Source: a virus
Taxonomy: Duplodnaviria; Caudoviricetes
Virus record (IMG/VR): IMGVR_UViG_3300037567_000279
Span: 1 to 39,761 of that record
Direction: 5' to 3' (one strand)
DNA: 39,761 nucleotides
The notes under the pieces: generated by a model
What the model was told of the DNA's origin: nothing
Databases searched by the model: none
The model's input: the letters and a program-made list of their open reading frames with translations, nothing else
Position numbers and translations under genes: made by a program
In this document: piece by piece, positions 13,330 to 38,558 of the stretch
How the letters are laid out: the number at the start of each line of letters is the position of its first letter
Position numbering within the stretch: position 1 is the stretch's first letter

Positions 13330-13337
13330 TATTTATG
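13330..13337 (-). promoter_or_regulatory. Probable late promoter CATAAATA overlapping the stop codon of the YHYH gene
   Basis: Plus-strand tatttatg, about 23 nt upstream of the ATG at 13307. Confidence 0.65.
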
Positions 13338-14950: not shown

Positions 14951-14958
14951 TATTTATT
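14951..14958 (-). promoter_or_regulatory. Probable late promoter AATAAATA overlapping the gp7 stop codon
   Basis: Plus-strand tatttatt, 14 nt upstream of the ATG at 14937. Confidence 0.6.
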
Positions 14959-17900
14959 GAAAAATCTGAGTCGGGTTGAAGTTGTTAACAACAGTAGCAC
15001 CAGTCTGTACTGTGAGGATCACAGAGTTGGAATAGATTGGTGTAGCACCAGCAGCAGTAACTGCAACACGGAACTCATCACCATCATCCGCTTGTTCGGC
15101 GGTCAATGATGTGTATGTAGCACTGGTAGAACCAGTGATGTTTGACCAGTTGGTTTCGCCATACTGCTTACGCTGCCACTGATAGTTCAGAGCAGTAGTT
15201 CCAATTTGATTGTCAGAACTGTTGATGAACTGAGCAACGATAGTGAATTGTGCAGTTTGACCTTGGTTTACTGTCACGTTTACAGGTTGTGCCGAAACGT
15301 TAACATAACCAGGAATGATGACGATCGGGTTGCCCTGAGCGTCAGTACCTTCGCCAGCATATGTGTCGAAACCTTGGTTAACAGCAGGTCCACTAGGAGA
15401 AACAAAGTCATCATCAACGGTAGTCTGAACCTCAACAATTGGTTGTTGATAGTCAATACCAGCAGTCTTAACATCAATTCTTAACAGACCCATTAGGGCA
15501 CGAACACGACCATCAAAACCAGTGGAGGAAACCACATCCACGTTCGGGCGCGAAGAGTAACCATCACCAGGTGAGGTGATGATTGCCTTAGTGATTTCAC
15601 CAGTCTTGATTGATGCAAGAGCAGTGGCACCACGACCTTTAACTGTGCCTGTGTACTCAAAGGTGATCAGTGAGTTGGAAGACTCAATCAGAGCAACTTC
15701 ACGTTCATCTGCTTCACCTTCGATTTGTAGAACATCACCTGCTTCAATCGGTGGAACAACTGTTGCTGCGATAACGTCAGCATCAGATCCAATGTAGGAG
15801 AAGGCAACGAATGTAGATCCTGCACGAGGAATCTCAGCGAAGATGATTCTAGAACCAACCAATTCATAACCAATACCTGCTTCCTGAATAACACCATTGA
15901 GTGAGACGATGATGTTGTTTTCGGGAAGGATCGTGTTAGACGAAACACCCTCAGTCAGTGTCAGTGAGTAGAATCCACCCTGATATTTCAGGTTGAAGGA
16001 CGAGCGTAAGGAGTCAAACTCGAATGAGATATCATCCAGTTGTCTCAGTTTACCCACGTAGTAACCAATGAATTCGGATCCAATGGTAGGTGGTTCAGTG
16101 AACGTGATCTGGTCGGAGAATGCCGTGTACGCGAAGTTAGCACCAGGGGGTTGCATAACACCATTAACAAAGACGAGCAGATGTCCAGCGGGATCTGGGA
16201 AGTATGCTTCACCATTACTAACCGTCAGTTTGAAGGTGTCAGCAGCGCCATCAAATCCACGGAAGAATCTATCGCAGCGACCCAAGAGATTCTTCGCTTG
16301 GGTGACACCAGCAGACCAACCATAGTCGGATTTGATTGTCAAGTTTGATGGGAAAGCGCCATTGACATCTTCCAACCATAGGCGACCTGTATCACCACTA
16401 ATTGACTTACCAGAAACCTTACCGTAGGACGTGTAATTAGTCTCGGTAACATTACTAATATCACAGGAGATGATTGGGAAGTTATTGAGGTTCTCAAATC
16501 TACCTAAACCACCTGTCAAAAGTTCCTGAGGATCTGTGGTTGTAGTGCCATCAGCAGCAGCACCAAATGGTGTTAAGTTTGCGATCCAGATCTTATGCTG
16601 AACGCCTTCCTCGTACAAATAATCTGTAACCAGAGCGGTCCAACCAGGAACCTTAGGTACACCACCTGAAAGGAGATAAACAACATCACCTCTCTTGAAG
16701 TCGCCCTCGAATCCTTGATCTCTCAGGATACTGTTGACATCACACTCGATCGTCTTAACCGCGTGTACGAACTGATTAAGTTCAATGTCTCTAAACCCTT
16801 CTTTACTGATCTTACCAATGTCAAGGATCTTGTCAGTGATAGAACCGTAAATGATGTCTCCATCAGTGAAGTCCTCTTGTAGAGTTTCAATGTCGATCGT
16901 GATACGACCACCACTGTTACCAGTCAAGATACCAGCAGAATTTTCGTAGGAAACGATAGTTGCCTCAGCACCATTACCTTTATTAAAGATAATCTCACCG
17001 TTAGCAAATTCACCGCGATCAGTATTGATCAACATGCGAGATGTGCCATTGTTACTGAGTTCTGCTGTGATACCACTGTCTACACCCTCAATCACCTGAG
17101 TGCTGCTAAGCGTACCCGTGATATTTTCGATGTACACCCAACCTTCATCCTCATTATCGCCCGTGAGGACTGAGGGTTGCATAACGATACCGTTGTTGGC
17201 AGCAGCACCTTGAACTTGTACTTGCTCACCAACTGTGAACCTACCAGTGGCAAGTCTGATGGTGTATCTGTAATATAGTTTGATGATATCAGCAGAGTTA
17301 TTTTTGTTCCTAACAATCTCAGAACTTGCAGTAGATGTAGTACCCACAACCACGTCTGCGAGGTTGAAACCACCAGTGATGGGGTTGTCAATATCTCTTG
17401 TGCCATATGTAGTTGTTTGACGTACAAGACCAGATCTTACAGGACTTTGCAGTTGTTGCTGTCCCGAAGTTCTTGTGTCAACTGCGAAGCGAGAGAATCT
17501 TGCATCATGTCTAATTTCCCTCGTGATCTCAAATTGCGTTGGCGTTGCATTGAGAACATAGAAGTAATCTTGATTAGCGAAGGCAGATTCAACATCACCT
17601 GATGCAATTGCATATTGTAGAATGTCACCGCGTGAGTAGAAGTTAGGACGTTGAATAATAATTCTATTCTCTCTTCTCTCAAACCCAACCTCAACGGTAG
17701 GTGTGTTGATGATCAGATCAGGATCAGTGTTCCAATCATTACCTTCATTATAATGATTTTGCTGATTAGTACCATGAACATTATTAGTCCACTGCACGGT
17801 ATTTTGTGCAGGAGGTGTGCCTCTGCTGATAGCAAAGTATGCAGCATTGAGGGAACTATCAATCTTAAACTGACTGGATTCTTTCTCATATTCAAATCTA

Positions 17901-20900
17901 TGCTCGATAGCGCCAGTATTGATATGAGTCTCATCTAAGTAGATGTCATATCCATACCACTCACCACCAACTAAGTTATCGTTGTAGTCATCAAGAATAC
18001 GCTTGGCATACTCACTGATACGAGTTACATACCAGAGAAGATGCTGCTTAGTGACATTAGGGAATGCGATGAAGTTACCCTCACCATCAAACCAGGTATT
18101 AACTAGTCTCAGGATTCCGATGTTACCACCAGTGTTCAAGTCATACAGCAGACCTTCAAGCAATGCATCACCAAACGATTGTTCGGCAATAGTTGCTGGA
18201 TATGCCGTTTGAACCTCTGAGAATGCTTTCAGGGAAACAGCGTGCTTGTTCCACAAGATGCGACGTGCAACTGTTTTATCAGAGTTACTACCACCACCAA
18301 GTGTCTCATCCATTAACTCGAAGAGAGTATCAGTTGCTGAGGTGACGTTGTAGCATGTGTAATACTGATAGTTTGTGTTGCTATTATATCCAGTGTTACG
18401 AGCAACTCCACCAAGATGACTAGCATTACCAGCATATGCTGTGCTGATTGTATCGATAACGATATCAAACAAAGTCTCAATGTTTGTTGCCTGAGTAGCA
18501 CAAACTTGATTCCAATCTGGACCATCATACGTAATTGAAACATCACGTCGGACATATTCAGGAGAATACTTGACAGGCCAGATGAATGGCAGAGTCTTAG
18601 TGATCGTACCGTCTCCGATACTTGCAGGTGTGGTGATTGTGTCAGTAACAATCGTCATCATAGTATTGATTGCCGAAGCAACGTCAGCACACTTAGGTGA
18701 GTCAGTATCTACTGTGATCGCATAACCACCCTCGCTATAAGGGAAGTAATCTAGATCTGTGTATGTCTTCTGAGTGAATCCATGACCAGCAGTAATCGTG
18801 ATTGTCTCATCCCTCATTGACTGAATTGCAAGATCTCTTGCTTTGTTCAGAATCCAGATAGACTCAGTAGAAACACCTACGATATGTTGTAGGTTACTGC
18901 CCGAAACATATAGTTCAGCAGACTTAAAGACCTTATTATTACCACCATGCTTCAAGTTCCACACCATGGAGGAGAGAACGTCAGTCACGTCATGTACACA
19001 GTCGATACTACCGTTAGTCACCACAGCGTCCTGCTGAGCAGATACGAATGTGTGTGCAAACTGATACTCAGCAGCAGCAACGCCAACGTTCACGGTGAAG
19101 GTGTCAGTTGTAACAGCACTAATGGCTAATGATGTATTATACGCAGGATCAGCAGATCTTGGATAAGAATGTTCAGTAGCGTTATTATTTTGAGTACATG
19201 TAAATACAATGCTATTAGGTTTAATTGAGACTCTATTAGCAGTAGTTAATGTGTGTCCAGCAACCGTCAGAGTCATGTCACCAGTTGCCTGGTTGTATGT
19301 TGCAGTAGTTGGAGTCAACTTAACACCACCAGTACCGACGCCATTGATACTTAATGAAGGATACTGAGCGAGACCTTGTGCAACTGCTTCCTCGGCAATC
19401 AGACGAATGTTTCTATCAATTACATTTGCTGCATCGATGAAACGGTCATCAGCGCCATTTCTTTCATAAGTGCTGACATCAACAGAATCAAGAGAAGAAC
19501 CACCACTGATTGGTTCACCAGTTACGGGGTCAACACCACCATCTTCTTGGTATAGGTACAAGTTCTCGCGCCCGAAACCATTACGCATCGTTAGGATGCA
19601 GATCTCAGCAGCAATCTTGTATACATCAAGTGAAGCGTCAACTTCACTTTCGATGTGCTTCAAACTGTCATCTTCTTCGTTCAGGTAGAGTGCAGCAGCG
19701 TCCCAAGTCTTAGAGTTGCCACCAAATCTCAGGTCATGAATCACAGCATCGAGAACGTCAATCACGTCATCAATACAATTTTGAGCACCACCAACAACAG
19801 CAAGATCCAAATACTTGGACATATCGTTCATCGTATAAACCGCTTCTTTTGCGATTACGTGCTTATTCGCTTCGAGTAGATCAGCAGTGTCAAGATTCTT
19901 GTTAGAATCAGAACTACTACCGTCATATCCCTTAGTATCGATGGTCAGAGTATCATCTTTATATACTGCAACATCAGTCCATTGTGCAATATAGTAATCA
20001 TCTTGATATTCAAATGAGACACTGAATTCAGCAGCAGTCGTACCCTTACTTAGGAGAGTGTTATTAACTGCATGATGCACCAAGGTTTTGATAAAGGCGA
20101 ATGCATCCAACATTGGACCAAGTTCATTCTCAATGTGAATGATCTGATCGTTAACATTAATATACTGATCAATAACATATTGGGTAGCAGAGTTACCACC
20201 AGTGATCAAGTCAGTGATAACAGCAGGCAGAATGTGTTGCTTGATATCACGCTCACAGTATGCATCACCATAACCAGGCATTGTCAGGAAATCGTAAGTA
20301 GTACCATTGATTTCCTTAATGTAGTTTGCCTGTAAGTAACCAACAGTTTCTTCTGCAATGTAAGTACGGTTCTTCCAGATCATATCGCCTGCATCACGGA
20401 ATCTGTCACCAGTAGGTCCGATGATATCTGCAATAGTATTAGCAAGAGCAGTGATCTCGTTAGTTACTGTGCTAGATGCAGGTGATGTAAAGTTGTTAGG
20501 AATGCGAAGAAGTTCAGTATACTTAACGGAGTTGTAGTTTTCAAGATCACCACTAGTAGTAGTAATTACATAATTAATAACATTAGCAAGTTCTGTCCAG
20601 GTGAAGATAGATTGTAGGAGTTCATTACCCACATAGTTAAGACCACCTTCCTTAGTTAGATAACCTCTACCAGCGACGACGCTGTTAAAGTTACCGCCAT
20701 ACTTGATATCTTCTACGATTGCTTTTAAGATGTATTCTTTGGTGTCACGCAAGCACTTGTTAGTACCTTGCTGTGTTCCAACACCATCAACACTATCACC
20801 AGGTATGAGGAAGTCAGAATACTTCTCCTTCATCAAACCAACAGCAACCTGAGCAATCCAATCGTAGTTCAACTCGATCAATTCAGCACACTTACGATGC

Positions 20901-23900
20901 TCATCGCGTGCGAGGTTAATATCTTCAATGATGAACTGCTTTGCATCAAAGTCAATACTCTTGGCAGTTGCCGAAGAGTTAGTTTGACCAGTATACACGC
21001 CATATCTTTCCTGATTACTGATGATCAGAGGTAGTTCCATGCTCATACCGAACGAGATGTCAGTGGTAGCAGTAGGATAGGTAGAACCAGGAGTGAAGGT
21101 TGTAGTATAGTCTGAGGTACCTTTCTTAATAATGATGTTATCAATCCAACCCACAAATCCATTAGCATTTGTTAAGTCAGCACCCACCTTGAATGAACGT
21201 TCTAGATAGTTAGTATTATCAGTGAAGTCACCACCAACTTGTGTACCATTCACCCAAAGTTTGGTGATGTTTGTTGTTCTACTAACAGCGATATGATGCC
21301 AAGCGTTAGTGCCTAAGTTGTGAGCACCCGTAATCTGATCACTACTGTTCAGGTACCAAGAGATGTTACTGCCATTCATATACAGAACGGGAGATCCAAT
21401 CTCAGCAGCACCACTCGTGCGTGTATCCCAGAGATACTGCAAACCAGACAGGGTTGTAGGTCTGATCCACATCTCAATTGTGAAATCAGCAGTTCCAAAC
21501 TTCTGTACATCACTTAGTTCATGTGTCAGATAACCACCAGCATCAAGTCTCAAAGACTTAGATCCAGACTTCTTAATTAATCCCGTCAGGACTGCATTAT
21601 TGCTAGTCAATTTGGTGTTAGAAAGAATCTCTCTATCTTGGAAAGTACCTGTAACTGAATTGGTATACAACCACTTCAAACCAGAGTTTGCACCCTTTGC
21701 TGTGAATGTTGCACCAGATGTCAGACCCGTGATTGTATTACCAGGAATAAAGAATCCATTTCCACCAGGATCTTTATAGGATAGTTTATATACACGTAGG
21801 TTTTCATTGATCTGATAAGAACCATCACTAATGACTGCCAGGGCATTAACATTGTCCAATGTGCCAGAAGCAATAGTAGTTGATGCAAGTTCGATCAGGG
21901 TATTGATACCTGCCTGAACATCAGCACAGTTACCGATTGATTCGTTTCTACCAGAGTAGTAGTTAGGATCGTAGTATGCAGCAGCGCCACCACCACCTTG
22001 GAATACAGCGTTATCCTCAGCACTAATGAAGACGTGAGCATAACCACCACCCGTGGAGATAGAGTTGTTTGTAGAACTTACGAATGTGTGTGGATATTGG
22101 TCAGCAGTGGCAGCAGCACCAACGTTTATAGTAATAGTGGTTGCAGTAACCGCAGAGATTAGCAGATAAGAATTATTAGCAGGGTCAGAAGCACGAGGAT
22201 ATGTATGGTTTGAAGCATTAGCATCCATAGTGCAAGTGAAGGTCAAACTATCTTGTGCGATAGTAACGTTATCCCCGATGCTCAGTGAGTGAGAACCGAT
22301 GGTCAGTTCCATTGCACCAGTTGCAGGATTGTATGCAGCAGCAGTAGGTGTAAATTGTACTAATGCAGATGCACCAACGTTAACTTCAATGGTTGTAGCA
22401 GTTACAGCAGTGATATTCAGAAGTGTATCGAATGCAGGGTCTCCCGCACGAGGATAATCATGGAAAGTTGCATATCCATCAGAAGCACATGTAAACCGTA
22501 AGGAGTAAGGTCTAATCTTAATGCTGTCGCTGGTTGTCAGTGAGTGTGAACCGATCGTCAATGTCATGACGCCAGTACCAGCATTATATGCAGAAGCACT
22601 CACGTCAAACTCAGTTAGTTCAGATCCCGAAGAACCAAGATATGGACCAGCATATGTGGTCGGATCTTTCAGCATATAACCAGTCGCACTAGTTCTGGTG
22701 TTAACCTGAACATAGAGAAGGTTGTTAATTGCCTTACGACACATCTCACCTGCTTTTTTGAAAGCAGTAAGTGACTCAGCAGTCTCACCAACCAGACCAT
22801 TACTGATAGGTGTTCCAGCATTATCATAGTATTTCTTGATAAATTCGACGATTTGATAGTTACCATCACCTGCAATATCAGCAGCAAGAGCATCAATCAT
22901 AAGACCGATGTCGCGACGACACTTAGTTTCGTTTGTGCTATATGCGTTGGGTTGTGATAGATCAATCAGATCAGAAAGTGAACCTGCAAGCAGGACTTCG
23001 GATACGTTAGTAAAGAGAGTTGTGAGTGCAGATTGTACATCAGAACAATTTGTAGCACCATAGTTTATAGCATTGGAACCAGCAGTACCATAATTATTAC
23101 CAGGTGATGGGTCAGCAGTGATGCCAGTACCAGAAGAACCGCCAGCGGATCTCTCATCATACTTGACATAAGTTACACCATCAACAACTTCACTACCCGT
23201 GAGCATATTAGTCAGAGCATTCTTCATGTAGTTGAGTGCTTGCTCAAATGCATATTCAGTTGCTTGCTCTTCACCATCAATATACAGGAAGGTCAAACCA
23301 TCTGTACTGAAATATGATTGTAGAAGTAGACGTGTATAAACTGTACCACCTTGGAACATGTCCATAGACAGTGCTTCGATATACTTACCGATATCTCTCT
23401 TACACTTAGTAGAAGAAGGAATCACAAGTGCAGGATACTCAGTAACCATGTCAGCAAAAGACTTGGCAATGATATATTCTTTGTTATTAGTAATCAGACG
23501 ATAAGCATCTGCATATCTACTATACTGATCGGTGACGTTATCACCAGGATAGTAGAACGCAGGGTGCTCAACAGAAATCTCAGCATTAGCAAAGTCAATG
23601 ATCTCTTGTCTGTTGAACTCGATCATACGACCAGCATCTTTCCATCTGTTGAGGGAATCTGTTACTGGGTTGCCATATGTTACTTGGATAGAACGAAGTT
23701 TATCACCAACTGCCAATGTGCCGCCAGTGAGACCTTCATATTCAATCTCAGTAGAACGAACTTCTTCAAAGTCAAGGAAGTCGGCGTTAATACGATCAGC
23801 AGTGTCAAGAATTTCGACAGGGGTGATAGTAGTCTTAGAAACATCATCAAGGATTCGGTTCTGATTGGTCAGAGAGATCAAACGCTCGAAGATCATGCCG

Positions 23901-26900
23901 AAGAATGTAGAACCTCTGTTAATGATCAGTGTATCAACCACATCACCAATTCTTGCTTGTCCCAGGAGAGTTTCTGTTAACGCACCTAAAACTTCATTAC
24001 CATTAACATCATTTTCATACTTTTGTACAGTTTCCGAAACTTCTGTCTGTTCACCATCAGTAGGATCAATAGTATTTGGATCTAAGTTGAAGTTCTGTTC
24101 AGTCTTTTTCAAGTAGTACAGAATAGGTGGAGATGCTACATAATCAATTCTGACAACTTCACCTCTTGCACCAGAAGTCAAACCAAGGAATTGATCACCT
24201 TCTTGGAAAGATGCCCATTCGCCAGTAACACTAGAAGGACGTTCTACGTTTATACTAGTAATAGGATCTCTGTAAGGTGAGATCGTTGTAATACGACCAG
24301 CAATATTAGATGCAGCAGAATAGAAGATATCATTAAGAAGAAGGTTATATGCACCAGTCTCATACTCAGCAGTTCCTGAGGTCTTAGACAATACTAACTT
24401 ATCAGAGACGTTACCATCAAGGTCAAGGTTGGTTTCTTCAATAATAGCAGTATCGTTATCGAGACTAGTGAGAGATTCACCAAACTCGAAGATAGTCTTA
24501 TAGTTAACACTATCAACATTTAAGATGTTAGCGCCATAACCAGCAGCGAAGAATTGTACATCCTCCCCACGATCAAAGTATCCATTAGACATGTCTGTCA
24601 CTTGGATGCTCTGCTCAGTTAGGTCAATAGAGGTTATAGTTGCTCTTGCACCAGTTGTTTGGCCTGTTACAATATCTCCGATTAAAATTGTTCCGAATGT
24701 ACCACCAATACTCTGTAAGAACAGTTTAGTGAATGACTTATCGATAGTTCCAATAAGAGCACTAAATCCAGTTCTACCAACATCAACTCTCTCATTCAGA
24801 TCGAATGTTCCAGTTCCACCAGTAATGTCCACAACGTCGATGCTAGTTGCACCAGTTGCAACAACTCTTGCTGTTGACTGAGTTGTGAATCCATTAACTG
24901 TGTCACCAATTGATGGGAAGATACCAGCAATAGTATTCAGATTCAATCTGGTGATAGGCATAATATCAAAAGAGATATTCCTATAAACCACTTTGGAGTC
25001 AGGTCTAGGTGCTTCTGAGAACACAATAGATCCACCAACCACATTGTATGCATTACCTGGTGATTGGATAACACCATTCAATGTAACAAGAAGTTGATTC
25101 TCATTAACAATTACTTGTTGACCTTCAACTGTGATTGGGAATGCCTTAGTAATACCATCAAACTGAGAAGAAATAGTATCAATCTTCTTAACGATGGAAG
25201 TAAGAATTTCCTCAGAGTTGGTCAATCTCTTCTTACGGAAGAGGACTTCGGAGTTATTGAATGTTGAATAGATTGGTTGAGCAGCACCGAATGAGGTAAT
25301 CTCATTGACATTGGTATACTCATTGATGTTAACTTGCTTAGTGAAGTCAGCAGCAACCTTACGACCAGAAATATCCTTACCACCAGTCAGTTCTAACTGA
25401 CCGAACATACTGAAACCAACTGGGTGGTTGTTTTCTAGAATCTGATTCTTCCACTTGTTGATAGGAATCTGAGACTTAATGACATAGGAGAAGTTCTGAT
25501 AGAAGAACGAGTCTTGAATCTTCTGAACAATTTCAGAAGGTTTACCAACGTCATCAGTAAATCTACCAGCAGTTTTGGTGATAGCATCAATGTTAAGAAC
25601 GCCCTTAGCGATGTTCAGGTTGTCGATGACACCAGAAGCGCGAGAAATGATACCTTGAACTTTACCACCAACAACAAAGTTGCCCTCAGGATTAGTAACT
25701 TTAAGGATCTTAGGTTGAATCTGCCAACCATCATTTTTGGAAACAATACCAAATGCAGTTGCAGTTTCAAAAGTTTCGCCTTGGTAAACTTGCTCACCTT
25801 CCAAAAATCTGGAAGTTTCGACCACTGCTTCTGCTTGACCACCAAACACCTCGGTAAGAAGAACTTGACGACCATCACCTTGTGTCAAGAATGTGATGAA
25901 GTTACCAGACTCAGCATCAACTGGGGTCAGACCGAATCTAAGTTGATCAGATTCAAGACCATTTGCATCACCAGCAATAGCAAAGTAAGTTTGACTAGAA
26001 GACAAACTTGTCAGACCAACGCTACTAGGTTTTGGCAGAATGCCTGCCTGTGAACCGATGTTATCAGCACGGAACTGAACCTCAGCACCAGTGGTAATAC
26101 CATGTGGGAAGTTAAACTGCAAGTAGTTCAAGTCAAGGTTCACAACATATGTGAACTCAGATTTCAACGTAACAATAGGTTGTGAAGAGTAACCAGCACC
26201 AGGATTCTTAATCAGAATTTCAGACAGTCTATTGTTTTTAACAATTGCTTCTGCTTCTGCATTAACTCCACCACCACCAGAGATAAGAACAGCAGGTGCT
26301 GAGGTATAACCAGCACCAGGATTAGTGATCTTAATCTGTGAAAGAATTGAAGTATTGAACAGTTGTAGGTTGATTGGGAATGCAATCTCAGGACGCAGAG
26401 TATAGTCATGGGAGTAACCATAACCAAACTCATTGTTTTTCAGAGTCTTGATCTTACCAATCTGTGTACCTGTTAAGAATACAGCAGCACCAGTACCCTC
26501 GTCAGGGATGACAACTTGAATTGCACCACCAGAACCTGCAAGAGTTGCACCAAGAATTCCAGGGATAGCATCGATGTCAATACTACCTGTGGTATAACCT
26601 TTACCTGGATCAGTTAGTGCAACATCTGAAATAGCACCAGATCCTGTCTCTGGATCATTTTCGACGGTGATATTACACAAACCACCTTCACCATCTCCAA
26701 GAATTGCAATCTGAGTATATACACCAGGTGCATACTCAGTACCAGCAGCAGTGATACGTAGTTTCTCGATCTTACGATCAGAAGCAATATCAGAGATGAT
26801 TGGAAGTTTCTTATAGAATCCACCAGGTGAGATTAGTCGAATCGAGTTGATAGGACCGATTGCTTTGGTAGAAGTGGTCGAATAGATTGTATTAGGAACA

Positions 26901-29900
26901 TCTCTATCATTCAGACCAATTTCTGCATTAGTAAACTCAGGTTCGATGAGAAGTGGGAATCTAAACTCAGTATCTGAAATAACTTCGCTAATTTTAAATC
27001 TACCGTCGAATGGTGTTTTAATAACATCAATAAACGAGTTTGCACCAACAGGTGATGTTGAACCCACTCGTGATGGGTCAAAATAGTATGTAATGTTTGT
27101 AACTTCACCACCAATGGTAAACTTAACCACAGGAGTCTCTGTTAGCGAAGATAGTCCAGGAGTACCTTCACGCTCAATTACGTTAAAGGAATATTCTAGT
27201 TTGAACTGATTATCTTGTGCAAACGACAGATAGTAACCAAAGTTGGATACATCACTCATATCAAAGATATAGGAGTGATTTCTTACCAGAAGTAGAATTG
27301 GGTGCTTAGAAGCAATCTTAATTCTGGAAATAGCGTTTTGCTCAAATATAGGATCGGCAGTAGCAATTGCTCTCATTCTATAAGTGAAATCTCTGGAAGA
27401 GAAGACTTCTTTTACGAAGAATGAACCCTTAAACTCAGCAGTTGTAAATCCTTCAACAAAGAGGATGTCATTAGTATTAAAGTTGTGGGGAGAAAGTGCT
27501 GAACAATAAATGAGGTCTGTATTCGCCTCTGCTGTTCTAATAATGTCCTTATTCAGGTTTACAGTAACACGAATGGTCTTAACACTAGATAGTCCACTTA
27601 CTTCTGCAATTTTATTATTAGTGTCTGCCTTAGGACCAGCATTTACGCTATTACCCAATGAAACTACGTCACCAACAATAAAGTCAGAACCACTGAAAGT
27701 ATTCAGGATAGTTACTCTATAATCAAGAACATTAGTAGGACGGAACCTAGCGTAGTTATAAAGTGGATCATATGTACTAGTGTATGTCCATGTAACGGAA
27801 TTATCCGTCGCTGTTCCTGATGCATGGGTTGGTGCGGTTGTACCACTGGTGCCAGCAACTGTACAGGTATACTTGTTTCTTCCAAAGTATACAGTATCAT
27901 CAAGTGCATATGATCTGGTCTCTGCCCAAGGGACAGCATCAGTTGGAACAGGCCATGGATAGTCCAGAAGATCAACTTCAATATTTGGCGCATTACTAAT
28001 AAACTGCCAAACCACAGAACCATCAGTTACTGCACCGATAGTATGAGTAGGTGGTGTTACACCAGAGGTTGCATTGTTAGTTGCATAGTAAATCTTGTCA
28101 TCTGACCAAACTTGGTCGTTTGTGGAATATGCCTTACCTGATTCCCATGCAGTTTGTGGGCGAGTAACTTCAAACGAAATTTCATCAATAGTATTAACCT
28201 CAGAAATGTCATTTTGGAATAGATCGGTATTATTAAAGTTGCCGTAGATTTTACCCACTTTATAGGTAGTACCAACGCCAGGATTATCAATACTGCCAAC
28301 GGGAATATCAACAATCGTACCAAACGATTGAACAATGCCCTGAGCATTGATTTGTTGAAGAATTGAACCTTTCTCAAACTTGATATCCTGGTTAAATGTA
28401 AATTCCTTAACAGCATCAATCTTCTGATAACCAGCATCCCTAATATAGTATTTTGGAAGAACAACAGGGTCTAGAATCAGTTTTCTACCCAAAGGAGTAG
28501 GAATAGTAGATGTCTTAGTTTCGTAAGTAAATCTATCGCTTACAAAGTTATAAGTGCCAGGTGCTAGTGTTGATGTTACATCAGAGTAATCAAGAATCTG
28601 TAAACCAGAAGAACCAACTGTCCATGTTGTGATTACAGGGTTGGAAATCGTATTTACGTTGATACCCCCAGTACCAGAGTCAAGGTCTTCTATACGCAGG
28701 TTCTCGCCGCTTCTGGTGGCGCTGGTGGGGGTATATGTACCTCTCTTGCTATGCAGTCTATCAAACTTGATTAGTTCAACTCCACTGTCATTAGAAGTGA
28801 TTCTATATCTCTCGGTAGGTAATGTAAACGATGCAGTAGTGTATACCGCCTTAGGATCAACAATAAGATCGTCGATGTTACCAAGGAAGCAGTTAGCAGT
28901 AGCAGGAGTTGCCACCTCTGCACCCACATACAAATCGTTCAGTACAATACTCTCAGTAGTAGTTGTAGTGGCAACAATAACACCATCGAAGTAACATGAG
29001 TAAACATACGAACCCAAGGAAGGTTCTTCTTTAACGAATGCAATATGATGCCATGCATTATCAGATAACGCCGCCCAATAGGTAGAACCAACAGACCATA
29101 CTGTGGTAGTAGCAGCACCGTTAGGAGTTAGTTGTAATGCAATCTTACCGTAGTTAGCAAGACCAGAATTACCTTCAATTGTGAAACGAATGGTTCCGCC
29201 AGTGTCGGCAACTGCTGTAATCATCTCAACAGTAGCATTACTACCGTCATGTGCAGAATCCATCTGCACCCACATACCAACAGTCCAGTCAGTAGTGATA
29301 TTCAGATCTTGCCACTGTATACGGTTAAGAGCAGTGAAATCTAATGATCCAGAACCAAACTTATAGTCAGTAGTATCATGTGCAGCGTTAGCAGCATTCA
29401 AAACTGTGATTGTAGAAATATCTTGCTTAGTTGAGTCTTCTACTAAGTTAGCAGCATTCTCAAAGCGATGAACAACCGTCTGATCGGGATTTTGAGTATT
29501 GCAACTCAGAATCATGTCACCAGAGTTGTCAACAGCATGAGTATGTGTTGTAAATCCAATATCAGTAGCAGTCTTCCAAACATCAGACTGATTTAGCAGT
29601 GTTCCGTCATATTTGAAACTTGCAATGTTAGCAGTCAGGTTGTTATCTTCATATTTGATCTCTGTAACGACATTAACGTTACCAAAGATGTCAAGAGAGA
29701 TGCCTGCATGTTTGACGGACTCAAATGTGACTGTTGGTGCCATAATCCTGGCGAAGTCCCATACTGGACTTGCAACCACCAGTTTGATCTGTGACATTGC
29801 AATCTTGAAGAATGCAACACCATAATTCTTGGTGCCATTCCACATATCACATACAAAGAACAGATCATTGTACTCATCAAGCACAAACTGTGGATTTTGT

Positions 29901-32900
29901 ACGTCACCACCAGATATTGCAAGACGTTTGACATATGTGAATTCGATGTTTGCACCATCGTACTCCATTTCACCAAATAGCAGATCATTGTTATCTTTGT
30001 CAATACCAGCAAAGACAAGTTTATTATCACCGATATAACGCAGTTGATACATCTGCTCACCTTCGGAATCCGAGGCAAACTTACGCTTCTCAATCAAATC
30101 ACCAAAACTATTCAGTTGAATGATCCAAATATCATCAGGATCGGGTGAGTTAGTATCAGTCCAACCACAGATGTAAACACGTTGATCTGCATCTAGATAG
30201 ATGTCACCAGCATAGTCGCGACGGGTACCACCAGACACACCAGCAATTTCTTTCTGCCATCTAACAAGACCTTCGGGATTGTTAGCATTATCAAGACCAG
30301 ATTCATACTTGGCAACTAAAATATCAGGATTACGGTTTGCCGTTCCCTGAGACTCAGTTTCACCAATCAAATAGAGGAGATCATTCTCTTCACTAGTCTC
30401 ATCCAGATACATCTTCTTCCAACGTGCCACCTTAATAGATGTACTAGGAAGTAAAGTTCTATCCCAAACAATATTACCTAGGTCGTTAAACTTAGCAACG
30501 AATGCTGCTGATTCACCATTGGTCTTTGTGATTTCACCACAGATATACAAATTACGCTGTGCTGATACAACAGAATCGAAGATCTCAAACTTACAATCTG
30601 CACTTTCGGTAAATGCGGTGGACCAGTAATAAGTCTTCTTGAATCTCTGTGGATGAGAAACACGAATCTCGGGAGAATTATCTACATCATAATTGAAACC
30701 AGAGTTGATGATGTTAACAGTATCAACCTTACCAGTGGTTTTGTCTAATACAATATCAAGTTCAACGTCTTGTCCAGACGGTGTGATGATTTCATACGAT
30801 GGGGGAATAGACTCATTATAACCAATACCACTTTGTGATACAAGAATTGAGTCAATGCCTGTAACCACAGACATATAGAATCTCTTATTTGTATTCTCAG
30901 TGATAACCTTAGAACTAACGATGACCTCATCTTGTCCAATTAGTTCGTGGTCTGTTGATGTTGTGATTTTACCGTAGGGTATATCATTGATGACTTCCTT
31001 ACTATATGCAGCGATGCCAGCACCCTGAACAGACTCAACTTGTGCAGAGGCACCAAAACCATCCGTTCCAGTGTTATCGAAGAATAATGTATCATTAACT
31101 TGATAGGATACACCAGAATTTTCAATAACAAAACCATCGATCTGAGCATTCTCAAATTTCGTTGTTGTCTCAACTTCAATATCGACTCTGGATTCTGTCG
31201 ATACTCTTGGGAAATAATCATAGATTTGAAGAGCTGCTTCCTCTGTCATCACCTGATTAGTGGCGATCTCGGCAGGAGAAATGATACCATCATTATCTAT
31301 GTCAGCAGTTTCAAAGAGGATAAGATCCCCTTCCTTCTCGGTAACCAGTTGATCTGACTGTTGGTTGGGTTGACGATCAATATCGATGTCAACTTCTTCA
31401 TATGGATCTCTAAAACGAGACACATCCTGAGGGATGTTCTCTTGTGTTGCTCTCTGACTCAGGTTCCAGGTATCTACAATAGAGTTGAACTCAGGACCGA
31501 TGATGTAAGGGAATACTGGAAGACCTGCTTCTGATGCATCAATTGTGATGAAGTAGCAATATGTACCATCAGGATAATCAGGAGTCTTACAGAAACGACC
31601 ATTGTATGGGTCTAGATCGCCCTCTTGGAATGCATATTCGTAGTCATCAACAAACTGTCCAGCAGGATAGTCAGCAAGTGCAGGACCATCGATACGAGCA
31701 GGTGTTGGGTTTGTATCAATATCGTAAACTACATTAGTTTTCAGTCTATAAGAAGAGCGCATTCTTCTGATACCACCGTTTTGATCGGTAGGATCGATGT
31801 AACCATAAGGACCGTAGATTGGGTTACCATCAAACGACCAACCTAGAATAGGTGAGTGGGAGATAGCAGCACCAGTTTCAGTGCCTTCTTCTTTAAACGT
31901 ATTAGTTTCAGGATCAAGAACTACGTTGTCACCAACCACATAACGGAGTTCTTTGGGGTCGGAGACGTGTGCATACTCACCACCGTACTGGTTATTGAAA
32001 CCAGTAAATACATAACCACGAGCAATATCGTACTTAGTGGTGAGGTTATATTCTATGTTCTTATTCCATTGGAAAACGTTTGCATTGAATGTTGCAAGTT
32101 GTCCAACTGCTTCCATACGGACAGTAGTGTTACCCTGAGTATACCCAACACCTTTGTTAGTGATACTAATTGAGGTAACCTTACCTCTATCTTCACCAAG
32201 GGTGCCGATGACAGCAGTTGCCTTAGCACCGAAACCATCACCATTGATGAATACAGTAGGAGCAGTAGTATATCCATCGCCAGAGTTAATAATAGCAACC
32301 GATACAATACGACCATTGATCACAATGGGTTGTGCCAAAGCCCCTTCACCAGAGTTCAGTTTGAGTGTTGGTGTAGAAGTATATCCAGTGCCTCTGGATG
32401 TAATGTTAACACCAGAGATAGCACCACGAACCTGTGCAAGAGCAGTAGCACCCGATCCACCACCACCAGTAATAGAGATTGTAGGTTGTGCTGTATATCC
32501 TGTTCCAGGGTTACCAACCAAGACACGAGTTACCCGACCATTTGTCACAACTGCTTGTGCAGTAGCACCCGATCCACCACCACCAACGATCGAGATCAAA
32601 GGTTGTGTAGTATACCCAGTTCCTTGGGTGAGGACATCAACGGTATCCAAAGCACCATTAACAACTACTGTTGCAACAGCACCTGTTCCACCACCACCAG
32701 TAATTTCTAGTGTAGGTGTGGAACCAGCGTCATACGACTCGCCAACATTAGTAATATCGATGCCAGTGAGAGGACCGAAGGTTACAAACTCTTGATCCTT
32801 ATATCCCCATGCAGATACGCCATTAACCCAGGAACCAATTGGAGTATTTGGTGCTACCGTAGTTCTGGTTGATACTGTATTGACGCTTCTAGGGAATCTC

Positions 32901-35900
32901 AGCAGTTTACGCTGGTTTCCTGGAATAAGTGCAGATCCACTGAAAGGACCAATCTTATAATTGGGAAGACCTGATGCTGCAACATAAACATAGTCATTAT
33001 TGAAGAATGAATTCTGTACGTTGGATGTAAACAGAGAGACCACTTCATTGATCGTACTCTGAGTAGACTTTCCTCTATTCAAGTCAACGGATAGAAGGAT
33101 ATTACCTTGTGGTTCAATATCTGTTGGTACTGGAATGAGATAAGAGAATGTAAAGTCGTCAAGACGAGCAGTAACCTCAAATGTACCATTATAAACAGCA
33201 GGGTTTGCGCCATAGAGGGTAACAGTATCTTCAACTAGCAAACCATGTGGGTTTTCGCAAGTTACAGTTGCAGTTCTGTTCAATCCACCAGGAATGATCT
33301 GAGAGACCTTAATAAGTTTCTTAACGTTATACAACCAAGATTGTAAACGCTCATCCTGGTCAGTAGAACCTAATGCCGCAACATTTAGTTTGTCACCAGG
33401 CAGATAATAGGAACCAGTATCTTCAAGAACAGTAGTTCCTGCTTCTGCGATACCCAGAATGCGAAGTTGCACTTCTGTTTCTTGTCCACGGTTAACATAT
33501 ACGAAAATATTGGAATGAATGGTTGTACCAGGATCCCAATCCTCTACAACTCCATTTTTAGAGCGAGTACACTCAATAAATTGGTTTAGTGACTTATCTT
33601 TGTATTGTACAATTTCATTATCGTCGATAATGATGGTACCGTTCTTTTCTGGCCATCCAATAGTGGAGTCAACGGTAATAATACCACCAGTAGTGTCTAA
33701 TGGTTCTACAAGAACTGTTTTATATGGAATCTTGAATTCGCCATTCAGTGTTTCTTCTGAAATTGCCAATTCATAGATAATGTCCGTACCTTCAATGATC
33801 GAGATGACGTTTTCAATCAGAACGGACGCATCCTTGATGTTCTGGTCAACTTCATCCGCAATTTGAACTAGTTGCGAATCTGCCAAGTTTGCTGGATCAC
33901 CAGAAATCAATTCTGCTCGTAAAATAGTGTCAACAACCCAAGATGCCGCAGAAGGGGTGATCATCTCATCCCTAGGGTAGTACACATCGACCTCTTCACC
34001 GAAGAGAATCTTAAATAGGTACTGTGTTGCTTTCTTAGTGCCCTTAGACAGATAGAAATCCTTAATCTTCTTGATAACCAGTACAGGATTAACCTGAGCA
34101 TAGTCAAGATTGATTGTGGGCATGTATTGACGACGGAATTTGTCAAATACTTGCTTAATGATCATACTGTCAATGTTATTGACAATAGATTCTTGTGGAT
34201 GACTGCTCTGAGTTAGTTGTGTCTCTTTTGCATAGATCTGGTTAGCGAAATCATCAAAATCTGCAATATCAGATACACCACGAGCACATCCAATCAGTGC
34301 TGATGGTTGATATTTACGTCCAGCAGATAAAATAGTGAAACCAGTGACTTCACCAAACCCAACATCACACGATGCTTGTGCAGATGCAGGAGATGCGATG
34401 TAAACCTTAGGTGGTATAGTATCAGAATATCCACTACCAAAGTTAATGATGTTGATATCAGTAATCTCACCATTAAAGATAGTTGCTACTGCCTCAGCAC
34501 CAATACCACCAATTGGTTCACCCAGAGGACCTTTACGATCATCCACAATGTAGACAGAAGGCGCATCTAAGTAACCTTTACCACCAGTCAGCAAATTGAT
34601 GTTAGTTACATTGCCGTTCGCAACGGTGATATCAAGCACCTGTGCGCCCACTGGTTGAACGATACGCGCTCTTGGGGGTGTAGTATACCCTCTACCTCTA
34701 TTAGTGATTGTTACTGATACAATCTGCCCATTAGGTGCAACAGTACATGTAGCAGCAGCATTGATACCACCCTCAGGTGCATCATCGATATAGATTGTAG
34801 GTGGATTGCTATATCCAATACCACCATTAGTGACAGAGATAGATGCTGCAACCAAACGTCCCTCAGCATCAATCTGAGGATCAGTGATTATCGCACCATT
34901 AGGATTTAAGAATGTGATTGCAGGAATAAAATCATAACCAGAACCTGAGTTAGTGATTTCAATACCAGACACCATACCAGTGGTATCATCAACAGTAATT
35001 TCTGCTGATGCTTGTGATCCGTTAATCAGATCCGATGGTGGAGTGATTTTAAGAACAGGTGGGTTATACGAAGTGTAACCCTGACCACCTCTAATCAATT
35101 GGGCATTTTTAATACCATTAACTAAGGTTCTACCTGCTGATGCTTCACCAACACCAGTTGATGAATAAACTGAAAGTTTAGGTGCAAAATTGAGTTGATA
35201 ACCTTTACCACCATTCTTGATGATAATCTTATCGATTTCACCACTAGAACCAACTCGGGTAACTGCCTCAGCACCACTACCCACAGATGGAGAAACGTAT
35301 TCAATGGAGCGGATATGGAATGTATCCTGATTTGAAATATTTACAAAGAACTTAATTTTTGTGTTGTTGTCCGTTAACACATAGTCATCATAAGGACGTT
35401 GAAGGACAGCATTCCTATTGATGATCAGACCGATCTCGGCAATAGGGGAATATGGTAAATTATCATACTCCATTGTTGTGGAGTCGAGACCCACTAGGGT
35501 TCCAACGGGGGGAATTACCAAATCCTTGATTACAGAATCCGCAAATCCAACATAATACAGAATTTGTGTAAGTTCTACCTGATCATTACCCGTTTTTGCG
35601 CGGGGTGGGGTGGTCAGAGTGATCTCACTACCAGAAACAGTATAATCAATCTGAGGAATCAGCAGATCGCCATAGATTGTTACCGCAAGGTGATCAGCAG
35701 ATACCGCAGACACAGGAGTGCCTAAGAATTTCAGCGAGAATGTAGTTCTTACTCCGTCAAATTGTTCCCAAGGTGATTCGAGTGCTTGTCTTTTCTTATT
35801 GAACTCTTCAAGAGATATACCAGGTGTCAGAATAGCATCTGGTCCACGAACGGTCTCATCATAATAGATGATCTCGTTATCAATCATCACAGAACCCTTG

Positions 35901-36185: not shown

Positions 36186-38558
36186 TTAGAAACAGGAGTC
36201 CAGTTCTGGATACGAGAACGTTCCAGTAGGGTACGTGATTGTATTTATGTTACTACCGCCGTAGTTCCATCCGCCAAAACTGAATGGATCGAAAGAAGGA
36301 ACAGCACCAGGATTAGTGTTGATATCCCTTGGAAACACTTTGGGGTCGAAGATTGTTGGGTCAACACCAGGTGGGATTGTGATAGGTCCATTGTTGGGTA
36401 AAACTACAACAGGAATTCTAGTCGTACCGTCAGGTGTATCACCTACATTAATAGGTCCAACACAAACAATACCATTTTCGTAATCCACAGTTCCAACCAA
36501 ATCATTCAGAATCACTTCTTTTTCATTTCTGTTGGTGACCATCATCAAGTTACCAAGACCATCATCTCTGATATTTACAGGAACCAGAGTTGCTGTTTGG
36601 GCAATCTGTGCATTGGCAACCACCTCTTCCAGATTAGTATTACCACCAGCAACTGGGTTGCTAACAGTAGTACCAGTAATAAGAGATCCTGCTGCTTCAC
36701 CAGCACCAATCAGATCAGCAACATCTTCGGTATATCCAGTAGCGTAGAATGTTCCACTCTTAACAGCAGAGAACTTAGGATTACAGGTACCTCCACCACC
36801 TCCACCGCTTGGATCGCCATCACCACCCCGATAATTGGGATCTGGTTGACATGTACCGTTGACACAGATCTGACCTTCTGGACAATCAGCACTAGTAGAG
36901 CATGGAGTACCACCACCATTCGGATCATCTTGACATGTGCCATTGATACAGACTTGCCCAGGAGGACAGTCAGAATCAGTAGAGCATGGAGTACCACCTC
37001 CTCCACCACCACCAGGACCGTCTCCACCACCACCAGGACCGTCTCCACCACCACCAAAATCATTCGGGTTAGTGATTGGGTTGTTGAAGTCTAAACACTG
37101 TGAGAATTGATTTCCGAAGGTGAACTGATCAAGGTTCTGACCCATAGTCATCTGGGTCGTTGTGCCACTGATAGCAGAATCGGAAGAGTCCACCATAGAG
37201 TTAAACTTCGATGGTTCTAGACGACCAGAGAATCTATTATCACGCTCCTGAGAGTTGAATCTATCGACAGACCTCAATACCTGAGCGGCCAGTTCATTTG
37301 ACGACCTAGGTGTATTGTTACCGTTGTAGGCAAGATGAATAGTCGGTGATATGTAGAAAATTCTGGGGTCAACGATTTCAGGTTGAATCGATGCCATAGA
37401 GTAATCAAGTAATTGATTCTTGATCCTCTTCTTAGTAGTGTTATTAAGGTTAACACCACTCCTTGTTCTTACTGCAACGTAAACTTTCCCATATTGTGGT
37501 GGATTTAGTTTCTCTCCACCGTATGCAGTCACTGATGCTGCCTGTGGATACAGTTCAGACACCAAATATGCGTAGTCACCTTCGGTAACTGCCCTATTCT
37601 GCACTGAGAATGACTTTGGAGCGCGATATTTGACTGTTAATGCATTTTCCCGTGCTTGACCATCCGCAGATGTCTCAATAGTTGTCAGTTCAATCGCCTG
37701 AGGGAGGATTGGACGACCCACAGAGTCCGCTGCACGCCCAATAAACCCAAATTTCTTCGCACCATTCGCTTGTTCACCGTCAGTATCAAGATATTGTACG
37801 GTGATGAACTCATTATCGATCAATTTACGACCAAGTACACCATCACCAAAGGTAATTTTGTATCTAAGGTCCTCAGTTTCCTCTAAAAAGTAATTTCTTG
37901 ACGTTGATTCAAGAGCAGTTACGTTATTTGCCAGAGAATATTCATCAACTTCCACAGATTGTTCGTTTGGACGAACAAAAACCTTCATTCTCTCCGTATC
38001 TACATCTTCTGATGGGATAATATACTCCGCTTTCCTTGTATCATCAACAGTAAAACTGTAATTGAGTAAATTTCCTTGATACACAAGCATCTTATTGAAA
38101 GTTGCCAGTCCAGTAGACTGATCAACGCTACTCTCTACGTCAGAAAGTAAAGAAAATATAAATGAATCACCATCAACCTTGGCAACAAATGCGTCACCTT
38201 TCTTAATTGTTACGGATGTTGGGTAAGTTTGATCACCAGGGAGCAATGTTGCCAAGGTTGTCATCCCAACACATGCTCTTGATCCCTTTTTGGACCTAGG
38301 AGTATATCCAATTTGCTTTGCAATCCTAACAATGTTATCTCTAACAGTTGCAGATTCCAAAAATGCCTCGTTCATCGACATGTTTGCCGTAAACGAAGCG
38401 TAATAAGTGTTATATGCTAGGATATCAATGAGATATGAAGACGCAGAACCTTCAAAATCATAATCTGTGAACTCTTTTCTTGTTCTCAGGTAAGATCTGA
38501 TAGATTCTTTGATCTCAAAGAAGTCTAGTGACGTTAATTCTGATGGTAGTGCTGCCAT
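36186..38558 (-). CDS. gp6: Baseplate wedge subunit gp6 with a Gly/Cys-rich insertion
   Basis: 790 aa. LDFFEIKESIRSYLR...FTDYDFEGS....LIDILAYNTYY, NEAFLESATVR, FGDGVLGRK, QNRAVT..DY, PPQYGKVYV and GTVDY..G are gp6 motifs. Confidence 0.95.
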   Translation of the reverse strand: MAALPSELTSLDFFEIKESIRSYLRTRKEFTDYDFEGSASSYLIDILAYNTYYASFTANMSMNEAFLESATVRDNIVRIAKQIGYTPRSKKGSRACVGMTTLATLLPGDQTYPTSVTIKKGDAFVAKVDGDSFIFSLLSDVESSVDQSTGLATFNKMLVYQGNLLNYSFTVDDTRKAEYIIPSEDVDTERMKVFVRPNEQSVEVDEYSLANNVTALESTSRNYFLEETEDLRYKITFGDGVLGRKLIDNEFITVQYLDTDGEQANGAKKFGFIGRAADSVGRPILPQAIELTTIETSADGQARENALTVKYRAPKSFSVQNRAVTEGDYAYLVSELYPQAASVTAYGGEKLNPPQYGKVYVAVRTRSGVNLNNTTKKRIKNQLLDYSMASIQPEIVDPRIFYISPTIHLAYNGNNTPRSSNELAAQVLRSVDRFNSQERDNRFSGRLEPSKFNSMVDSSDSAISGTTTQMTMGQNLDQFTFGNQFSQCLDFNNPITNPNDFGGGGDGPGGGGDGPGGGGGGGTPCSTDSDCPPGQVCINGTCQDDPNGGGTPCSTSADCPEGQICVNGTCQPDPNYRGGDGDPSGGGGGGTCNPKFSAVKSGTFYATGYTEDVADLIGAGEAAGSLITGTTVSNPVAGGNTNLEEVVANAQIAQTATLVPVNIRDDGLGNLMMVTNRNEKEVILNDLVGTVDYENGIVCVGPINVGDTPDGTTRIPVVVLPNNGPITIPPGVDPTIFDPKVFPRDINTNPGAVPSFDPFSFGGWNYGGSNINTITYPTGTFSYPELDSCF
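36242..36249 (-). promoter_or_regulatory. Possible internal late promoter CATAAATA in the 3' end of gp6, upstream of gp7
   Basis: Plus-strand tatttatg, about 64 nt upstream of the gp7 ATG; could occur by chance. Confidence 0.45.
37001..37056. repeat. 21-bp tandem repeat (about 2.7 copies) encoding GGGGDGP in gp6
   Basis: ctccaccaccaccaggaccgt at 37001-37021 and 37022-37042, with a partial copy at 37043-37056. Confidence 0.9.

What the first reader, a model, noticed from the sequence alone, without database searches (positions are those of the whole stretch)
18300..23050. Second conserved Cys matches the beta-Cys153/155 site, the target of T-type lyases: a candidate substrate for phage CpeT
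Seen: five C-terminal helices begin with a Cys: NC4378SDVQSALTTLFTNV (23045-7), NC4751ADVQAGINTLIELA (21926-8), KC5830ADVASAINTMMTIV (18689-91), VC5893ATQATNIETLFDIV (18500-2) and TC5942YNVTSATDTLFELM (18353-5). Known (from memory): beta-phycocyanin ends GDC155SALASEIASYFDRA, with Phe at Cys+11 as in three of these helices. CpcT/CpeT lyases attach bilin at that peripheral site, and cpeT-like genes are widespread in T4-like cyanophages without a clearly established substrate. Inference: the phage lyase may chromophorylate the phage's own baseplate rather than host antenna proteins.
Basis: partly seen in the sequence, partly recalled or inferred. Interest (0 to 1): 0.85.

Follow-up and report, generated by a model that had tools for sequence, protein, structure and literature searches.

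The report
CpeT-type bilin sites in cyanophage baseplate
Five cysteines in the giant baseplate protein of this cyanobacterial virus lie in domains related to the host's light-harvesting pigment proteins, at the predicted second pigment-attachment site served by CpcT/CpeT-type enzymes, so the virus's own CpeT enzyme likely acts on the virus particle itself, which is untested.

Summary
Observation confirmed. The five Cys lie at the stated codons of a 7074-aa gp7-like baseplate protein and begin the last helix of five nested phycobiliprotein-like domains. A model of one domain (pLDDT 86) superposes on phycocyanin/phycoerythrin beta chains (Z 15-17, about 2 A); by register C4378 falls on beta-Cys153. 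Exactly these five domains keep the equivalent of beta-Asp39, which binds the beta-153 bilin. Cys and Asp are kept or lost together in relatives (251 of 259 domains, but only about three independent losses).

This contig is 22% of a genome and has no cpeT; 4 of 4 complete close relatives do. All 21 of 21 cpeT-positive genomes tested carry the domains, and cpeT often sits directly upstream of a fibre gene with them. Jumbo phages whose domains lack the site lack cpeT (0 of 32 records, mostly fragments). Against: 3 of 10 cpeT-negative cyanophages keep intact sites, and P-SSM4 has cpeT with decayed domains.

No pigment or lyase activity is shown. The scan found this before on other DNA. I found no description in the searchable literature.

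The parts
14954..36178 (-). 7074-aa gp7-like baseplate wedge/virion structural protein, downstream of gp25 and gp6, upstream of gp9/10-like and gp8 genes
   Evidence: phrog_701 E 0; PF00502 E 2e-8 on aa 4100-7074
21854..23656 (-). Domain X (aa ~4175-4775): Asp4181, CxRD Cys4420, helix-H Cys4751; domain Y and two beta-rich inserts lie inside it
22979..23527 (-). Domain Y (aa 4218-4400), contiguous: Asp4224, CxRD Cys4259, helix-H Cys4378; modelled and superposed on beta subunits
20405..20911 (-). Domain D3 (aa ~5090-5258): keeps helix-E Cys5142, has Lys5096 for the Asp and Ser5236 for the helix-H Cys (internal negative control)
18284..20410 (-). Domain D4 (aa ~5257-5965), outermost of a three-deep nest: Asp5262, Cys5308, helix-H Cys5942
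18434..19909 (-). Domain D5 (aa ~5424-5915), inside D4: Asp5430, Cys5468, helix-H Cys5893
18623..19453 (-). Domain D6 (aa ~5576-5852), inside D5, with a beta-rich insert: Asp5582, Cys5727, helix-H Cys5830
17969..18292 (-). Domain D7 (aa ~5963-6070), decayed: Thr5969 for the Asp, no helix-E Cys, no helix H detected
23045..23047 (-). Cys4378, beta-153/155-equivalent site of domain Y
21926..21928 (-). Cys4751, helix-H Cys of domain X
18689..18691 (-). Cys5830, helix-H Cys of D6 (lost in one lineage of orthologues)
18500..18502 (-). Cys5893, helix-H Cys of D5
18353..18355 (-). Cys5942, helix-H Cys of D4
23507..23509 (-). Asp4224, beta-Asp39 equivalent of domain Y (the other four: 23636-8, 20393-5, 19889-91, 19433-5)
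36242..36248 (-). T4-type late-promoter-like heptamer 64 bases upstream of the gp7 start (consensus recalled)

Best explanation
The five cysteines start the last helix of five nested phycobiliprotein-like domains in the phage's baseplate protein and are predicted to be the beta-153/155 pigment-attachment site, which the phage's own CpeT lyase likely loads with a host-made bilin, so the finished particle would carry pigment. Shown: sequence, domain order, conservation, co-occurrence with cpeT. Predicted: fold and register of the Cys. Inferred: during late infection CpeT presents phycoerythrobilin or phycocyanobilin to the helix-H Cys, the Asp39 equivalent holds the central pyrrole nitrogens, and the helix-E CxRD Cys is loaded by self-assembly or a host S-type lyase. 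Where cpeT is missing, the host's CpcT/CpeT would have to do it. The pigment's use (light-gated attachment or photoprotection) is speculation. Odds: beta-153-equivalent site about 95%; carries a bilin about 65%; phage CpeT is the loader about 50%.
For: Fold: PF00502 above cut-off. A profile of 65 phage domains matches 91 PDB sequences at E <= 0.01; the 60 shown are all phycobiliprotein-family chains, best beta-phycocyanin 6JPR_B (E 1.6e-6) with Asp39 and Cys82 aligned. Model pLDDT 86. The 50 VIA rows are beta chains by chain letter and length, Z 15.0-16.9, rmsd 1.8-2.5 A, model 1-180 on chain 33-172 (phycocyanin) or 33-177 (phycoerythrin); model Asp7 gives 39 and Cys161 gives 153 if the end helices align without gaps. 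Pocket: beta-Asp39 H-bonds the beta-153 bilin nitrogens (PMC6614406, passages). Asp and Cys together: 5 of 5 window domains with the Cys have the Asp, 0 of 2 without; 98 both, 153 neither, 7 Asp only, 1 Cys only among 259 domains. Lyase link: T-type lyases serve this site (PMC2327270, passages); cpeT in 4 of 4 complete close relatives; 21 of 21 cpeT-positive genomes have the domains, 7 of 10 negative ones lack them; cpeT lies 251-3214 bases upstream, same strand, of a domain-bearing gene in 18 of 80 loci; G020 has two cpeT, each within 9 kb of such domains; 0 of 32 records of the one-site class have cpeT. Bilin reductases do not track the domains as tightly (P-SSM2 and S-SSM7 have one without domains).
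Against: No bilin or lyase activity is shown. S-SKS1, S-T4 and B3 have intact Asp/Cys/Cys domains (B3 five of them) and no cpeT by three searches. P-SSM4 has cpeT but decayed domains: one helix-H Cys, with Asn for Asp and no helix-E Cys. The Asp-Cys covariation rests on about 3 changes of the Cys on a tree, and one lineage lost C5830 while mostly keeping the Asp. The 31 genomes were hand-picked and are related. The Cys153 match in sequence is below threshold (-1.9 bits), Foldseek gave no E <= 0.001, and the loop before the Cys is low-confidence. In phycocyanin ring D of this bilin rests on alpha-chain residues, and the phage domain has no alpha partner or X/Y helices (match starts at residue 33). 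In the closest relatives cpeT is about 55 kb from the domains and no bilin reductase was found in S-WAM1, S-SZBM1 or G001.
Confidence: 0.5

Rival explanations
1. The site does carry a bilin, but it is loaded by the host's CpcT/CpeT or by self-assembly; phage CpeT acts on host phycoerythrin or has another role, and merely co-travels with the domains.
For: Three cpeT-negative phages keep intact sites. Bilin-binding globins with a CXRD motif self-assemble without lyases (PMC10151467, passages). Reviews assign phage CpeT to host antenna (PMC10452541; PMC2984593). P-SSM4 keeps cpeT with decayed domains.
Against: No cpeT-positive genome lacks the domains (0 of 21). cpeT sits next to domain-bearing fibre genes in several lineages. 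Prochlorococcus phages carry cpeT though the host has no phycobilisome (PMC2984593).
Confidence: 0.2
2. The domains are phycobiliprotein-derived structural modules with no pigment; the cysteines form inter-domain or inter-chain disulfides that stiffen the baseplate after lysis.
For: Extracellular particle; two conserved Cys per domain; no alpha partner for ring D.
Against: The two bilins on these Cys are 38.7 A apart in a beta subunit (PMC6614406), so no intra-domain bond is expected. The other nearby Cys are not conserved (C4480 4 of 33, C5527 11 of 32). The helix-E Cys persists without the helix-H Cys in 151 of 259 domains. A disulfide does not explain the link with Asp39 or the kept Asp at CxRD (776 of 799).
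Confidence: 0.12
3. The domains act as decoys or docking surfaces that bind bilins or host antenna-related proteins non-covalently, or are relics of a captured beta-subunit gene kept only for shape.
For: Decay in D7, D3 and P-SSM4 shows the domain can persist without the residues.
Against: Asp, Cys and CxRD are kept in 726 of 801 parsed domains although many pairs of domains share only 16-45% identity, which argues for selection on the binding residues.
Confidence: 0.18

Closest known systems
Phycobiliprotein beta subunits CpcB/CpeB and cryptophyte beta chains (Pfam PF00502)
   Same: Globin-like core from residue 33 to the C-terminus, CxRD Cys (beta-82/84), Asp39 and a Cys before helix H (beta-153/158); Z 15-17, rmsd about 2 A.
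   Different: No X/Y helices, no alpha partner gene in the window; about 20% identity or less; seven copies nested inside a 7074-aa virion protein; long inserts in the A/B-E and G-H loops; no pigment shown.
T-type bilin lyases CpcT/CpeT (PF06206), including cyanophage CpeT
   Same: Their known target is the beta-155 Cys (PMC2327270); relatives of this phage encode one.
   Different: Known substrates are host antenna subunits. The paper on phage CpeT (Gasper 2017) could not be opened; from recall it binds phycoerythrobilin but a natural acceptor was not established.
Bilin biosynthesis-associated globins (BBAG-1/-3; PMC10151467)
   Same: Distant phycobiliprotein relatives with a CXRD motif that bind bilins outside light harvesting.
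   Different: Stand-alone bacterial proteins; a second site is not mentioned in the passages read. They resemble the one-site jumbo-phage class more than these two-site domains.
T4 gp7-like baseplate wedge initiator of Kyanoviridae (phrog_701; S-WAM1 YP_009325074.1)
   Same: Gene order and full-length similarity; 78% identity in domain Y to S-WAM1.
   Different: Annotated only as structural protein or wedge initiator; the records seen do not mention the domains.

Membership tests
Phycobiliprotein beta subunit (CpcB/CpeB) | Globin-like phycobiliprotein fold | tested here: met
   PF00502 34.8 bits, cut-off 22.2; model Z 15-17 to beta chains. Modelled for domain Y only.
Phycobiliprotein beta subunit (CpcB/CpeB) | CxRD cysteine at beta-82/84 | tested here: met
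   C4259, C4420, C5308 read CxRD; C5142 CLRD; C5468 and C5727 read CxDD/CxHD; aligned to Cys82.
Phycobiliprotein beta subunit (CpcB/CpeB) | Second cysteine at beta-153/155 with Asp39 | tested here: met
   Register from aligned ranges and sub-threshold HMM piece; no residue-level superposition was available. Met in 5 of 7 domains.
Phycobiliprotein beta subunit (CpcB/CpeB) | N-terminal X/Y helices and alpha-beta heterodimer | tested here: not met
   Match starts at chain residue 31-34; domains are embedded in a virion protein.
Phycobiliprotein beta subunit (CpcB/CpeB) | Covalently bound bilin | not testable with these tools
   Needs biochemistry.
Substrate of a T-type lyase | Acceptor Cys at the beta-155 position | tested here: met
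Substrate of a T-type lyase | Lyase gene in the same genome | tested here: inconclusive
   None in this 22%-complete contig; present in 4 of 4 complete close relatives; absent in 3 phages with intact sites.
Substrate of a T-type lyase | Lyase-dependent bilin attachment | not testable with these tools
   Needs co-expression and mass spectrometry.
gp7-like baseplate wedge initiator (Kyanoviridae) | Homology and position between gp6 and gp8-like genes | tested here: met
gp7-like baseplate wedge initiator (Kyanoviridae) | Present in the particle | not tested
   Inferred from family annotation and a late-promoter-like site.

The most novel reading that the evidence does not exclude
T4-like cyanophages build pigmented virions: phage CpeT is a virion-maturation enzyme that loads bilins on nested beta-phycobiliprotein domains of the baseplate and tail fibres, giving the particle an array of chromophores that gates attachment by light. 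A sister class in uncultured jumbo phages uses a single self-loading site and, in some, its own heme oxygenase and bilin reductase.
Probability: 0.3. Interest if true: 0.95.

Novelty: new variant of a known kind. Interest (0 to 1): 0.78.

Why it matters
cpeT is in over 60% of T4-like cyanophages (PMC10665884, passage) and is routinely read as a gene that boosts host light harvesting. These domains give it a named, phage-encoded candidate acceptor that can be tested in one co-expression experiment. If right, a textbook auxiliary metabolic gene is really a virion-assembly enzyme, and ocean cyanophage particles carry pigment. That would offer a physical basis for their reported light-dependent adsorption (PMC2984593, passage).

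Tried and rejected
Fold of the D4-D5-D6 nest (707 aa, 10 sequences): mean pLDDT 45, pTM 0.30; helices start at or near the three Cys but packing cannot be read, so it was not searched. The wide VIA search was not run; the VIA result is a second look at Foldseek's own matches. Single-sequence search of domain Y against PDB: best E 0.22, alpha chains, uninformative. Late-promoter motif within 300 bases upstream of cpeT: 6 of 29 against 3 of 29 downstream, inconclusive. S-type lyase (PF09367): 0 of 36 records, so it does not replace cpeT in S-SKS1, S-T4, B3 or the jumbo class; a divergent cpcV might be missed. Divergent cpeT in the ten negatives: a 21-sequence profile found none; those two calls had no positive control, the same profile rang on G001. 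The binomial chance figure is circular (seeds came from these helices) and is not used. Raw Fisher p-values for Asp/Cys are inflated by descent and discounted after the tree. Intra-domain disulfide rejected on geometry of the known fold. Literature searches for a prior description found none; subscription papers, Gasper 2017 and all supplements were not seen.
Full report
Setting. The window is a 39.8-kb virus record, 22% complete, holding the baseplate genes of a T4-like cyanomyovirus: gp25, gp6, a 7074-aa gp7-like protein (14954-36178, minus strand), a gp9/10-like gene and gp8. The nearest cultured relatives in domain Y are S-WAM1 (78%), S-SZBM1 (73%) and P-RSM6 (56%).

Observation. All five Cys and their flanks are as stated; three have Phe at +11. 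The C-terminal part of the protein hits PF00502 at E 2e-8, above the curated cut-off.

Anatomy. Three recurring modules can be scored with their anchor column masked: an A/B-helix module with an Asp, an E-helix module with the CxRD Cys, and an H-helix module with the Cys of this finding. Read as brackets (A opens, E fills, H closes) they nest perfectly in 81 of 121 proteins and in 0 of 6050 shuffles of the order. The window has seven domains: X containing Y; D3; D4 containing D5 containing D6; and a decayed D7. C4378 closes Y, C4751 X, C5830 D6, C5893 D5 and C5942 D4. The nesting is inferred from this grammar; a fold of the D4-D6 nest was too poor to test it (pLDDT 45).

Is it the beta-153/155 site? 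A profile of 65 contiguous phage domains matches 91 PDB sequences at E <= 0.01. The best is beta-phycocyanin 6JPR_B, with Asp39 and Cys82 aligned in the significant stretch and Cys153 aligned to the helix-H Cys in a second piece scoring -1.9 bits. The model of domain Y has pLDDT 86, with helix 162-181 at 91-95 and the preceding loop at 49-63. Foldseek gives no match at E <= 0.001, but its listed rows are phycocyanin, phycoerythrin or related chains that by letter and length are beta chains. VIA re-alignment gives Z 15.0-16.9 and rmsd 1.8-2.5 A over 129-143 residues, model 1-180 on chain 33-172 or 33-177. Counting from the ends puts Asp4224 on 39 and Cys4378 on 153 in phycocyanin (158 in phycoerythrin, numbering recalled), provided the terminal helices align without gaps. 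No residue-level superposition was available.

Is the pocket under selection? In phycocyanin beta-Asp39 H-bonds the pyrrole nitrogens of the beta-153 bilin (PMC6614406, passages). In the window the five domains with the Cys have the Asp and the two without have Lys and Thr. Of 801 parsed domains in close relatives, 726 have both, 23 neither, 18 Asp only, 34 Cys only. In the 150 best distant representatives (of 1512 hits) 259 of 1520 aligned stretches covered both helices well: 98 both, 153 neither, 7 Asp only, 1 Cys only. A tree with those columns masked needs only 3 changes of the Cys and 8 of the Asp, so this is one deep split plus a few separate losses, not hundreds of events. One lineage lost C5830 and mostly kept the Asp. 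The helix-E Cys is kept independently (151 of 259 without the second Cys), and the other nearby Cys are poorly conserved; both count against a disulfide role.

Link to cpeT. T-type lyases attach bilin at Cys-155 of beta subunits (PMC2327270, passages). This contig has none. PF06206 is found in 4 of 21 related records, namely all four complete ones, about 55 kb from the domains, so beyond this contig's end if gene order is shared. Across 31 complete or near-complete genomes, 21 have cpeT and all 21 have the domains; of 10 without cpeT, 7 lack them (Fisher p 4.6e-5). Fifteen genomes were picked from hit lists of one trait or the other. Among the 16 picked from a gp8 list or by name the split is 7 both, 7 neither, 2 domains only, 0 cpeT only; these too are hand-picked and related. 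Of 19 cpeT-positive genomes scanned, 18 have at least one domain with Asp and both Cys; P-SSM4 does not. In the S-PM2/S-RSM4 type, cpeT lies 251-3214 bases upstream of a domain-bearing gene in 18 of 80 loci (13 of the 27 with more than 3 kb of upstream DNA). A class of uncultured large phages has domains without Asp and second Cys (65 of 65 scored, in 28 of 32 loci) and no cpeT in 32 records summing to about nine genome equivalents, one 93% complete; this is one lineage contrast. Bilin reductases occur in 9 of 31 genomes, two of them without domains, and not in the three closest complete relatives, so pigment would come from the host.

Against. S-SKS1, S-T4 and B3 keep intact sites without detectable cpeT or S-type lyase. 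The alpha-chain residues that hold ring D in phycocyanin have no obvious counterpart. No pigment or activity is shown.

Mechanism. Most likely the late-expressed gp7 folds its domains in the host cytoplasm, phage CpeT loads a host bilin on the helix-H Cys, and the CxRD Cys is loaded by self-assembly, as in bacterial CXRD globins (PMC10151467, passages), or by a host lyase. This would explain why these phages carry a T-type lyase and, in the records tested, no S-type. I put the site's identity at about 95%, a bound bilin at about 65%, and phage CpeT as loader at about 50%. What the pigment does is unknown; light-gated adsorption is the boldest reading, and adsorption is reported to be light-dependent for several cyanomyoviruses (PMC2984593, passage).

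Novelty. The fold, the site and the lyase family are known; their combination in a virion protein was not found in eight literature searches. Papers seen as passages: PMC10452541, PMC6614406, PMC7780113, PMC2327270, PMC13198022, PMC10665884, PMC2984593, PMC10151467; others as search listings only. Gasper 2017 is recalled, not read, and no supplements were opened; a mention there would lower the novelty. The scan has reported the same idea on other genomes; those notes are not evidence, and every claim above was tested here. The domains work like beta-subunit bilin pockets but are not beta subunits, since they lack the X/Y helices and alpha partner.

Noticed in passing
L178, L199-L260 (G021, G073-G104); proteins P0096, P0103, P0125-P0141: A one-site class of the same repeats (CxRD kept, Asp39 and second Cys absent), up to about 36 per protein, in fibre-like proteins of uncultured phages estimated near 350 kb, with no close cultured relative. 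G074 has a heme oxygenase next to a bilin reductase and G082 a bilin reductase; none has cpeT or CpeS.
   Followed up: partly
window 17969-23656 and 81 of 121 homologues: The domains are nested like brackets, up to several deep, by insertion in the A/B-E and G-H loops; an unusual way to grow a repeat protein.
   Followed up: partly
G020:C1 2237-2668 and 108901-109329: One genome with two cpeT genes, each within 9 kb of its own domain-bearing giant gene.
   Followed up: partly
L140 (P-SSM4, 68500-78000): cpeT- and bilin-reductase-positive phage whose domains have lost every helix-E Cys and keep one helix-H Cys; a sharp test case either way.
   Followed up: partly
window 36186-38558: gp6 carries a small Cys-rich insert near aa 523-571 matching DUF7107, Dickkopf-N and EB modules.
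   Followed up: no
window aa 4520-4710 and 5620-5720 of gp7 (about 22050-22620 and 19020-19320): Three copies of a beta-rich insert with a conserved Cys (4564, 4649, 5661), variable in copy number among relatives.
   Followed up: no
window 13333-14937 and gp7 aa 1397-1548: YHYH domains (PF14240) in two neighbouring structural proteins; gp7 also has a laminin-G/concanavalin domain between X and D3.
   Followed up: no
window aa 5097 (20888-20890): D3, which lacks the Asp and second Cys, has a Cys one residue after the Asp position, kept in 25 of 32 orthologues; a possible alternative attachment site.
   Followed up: no
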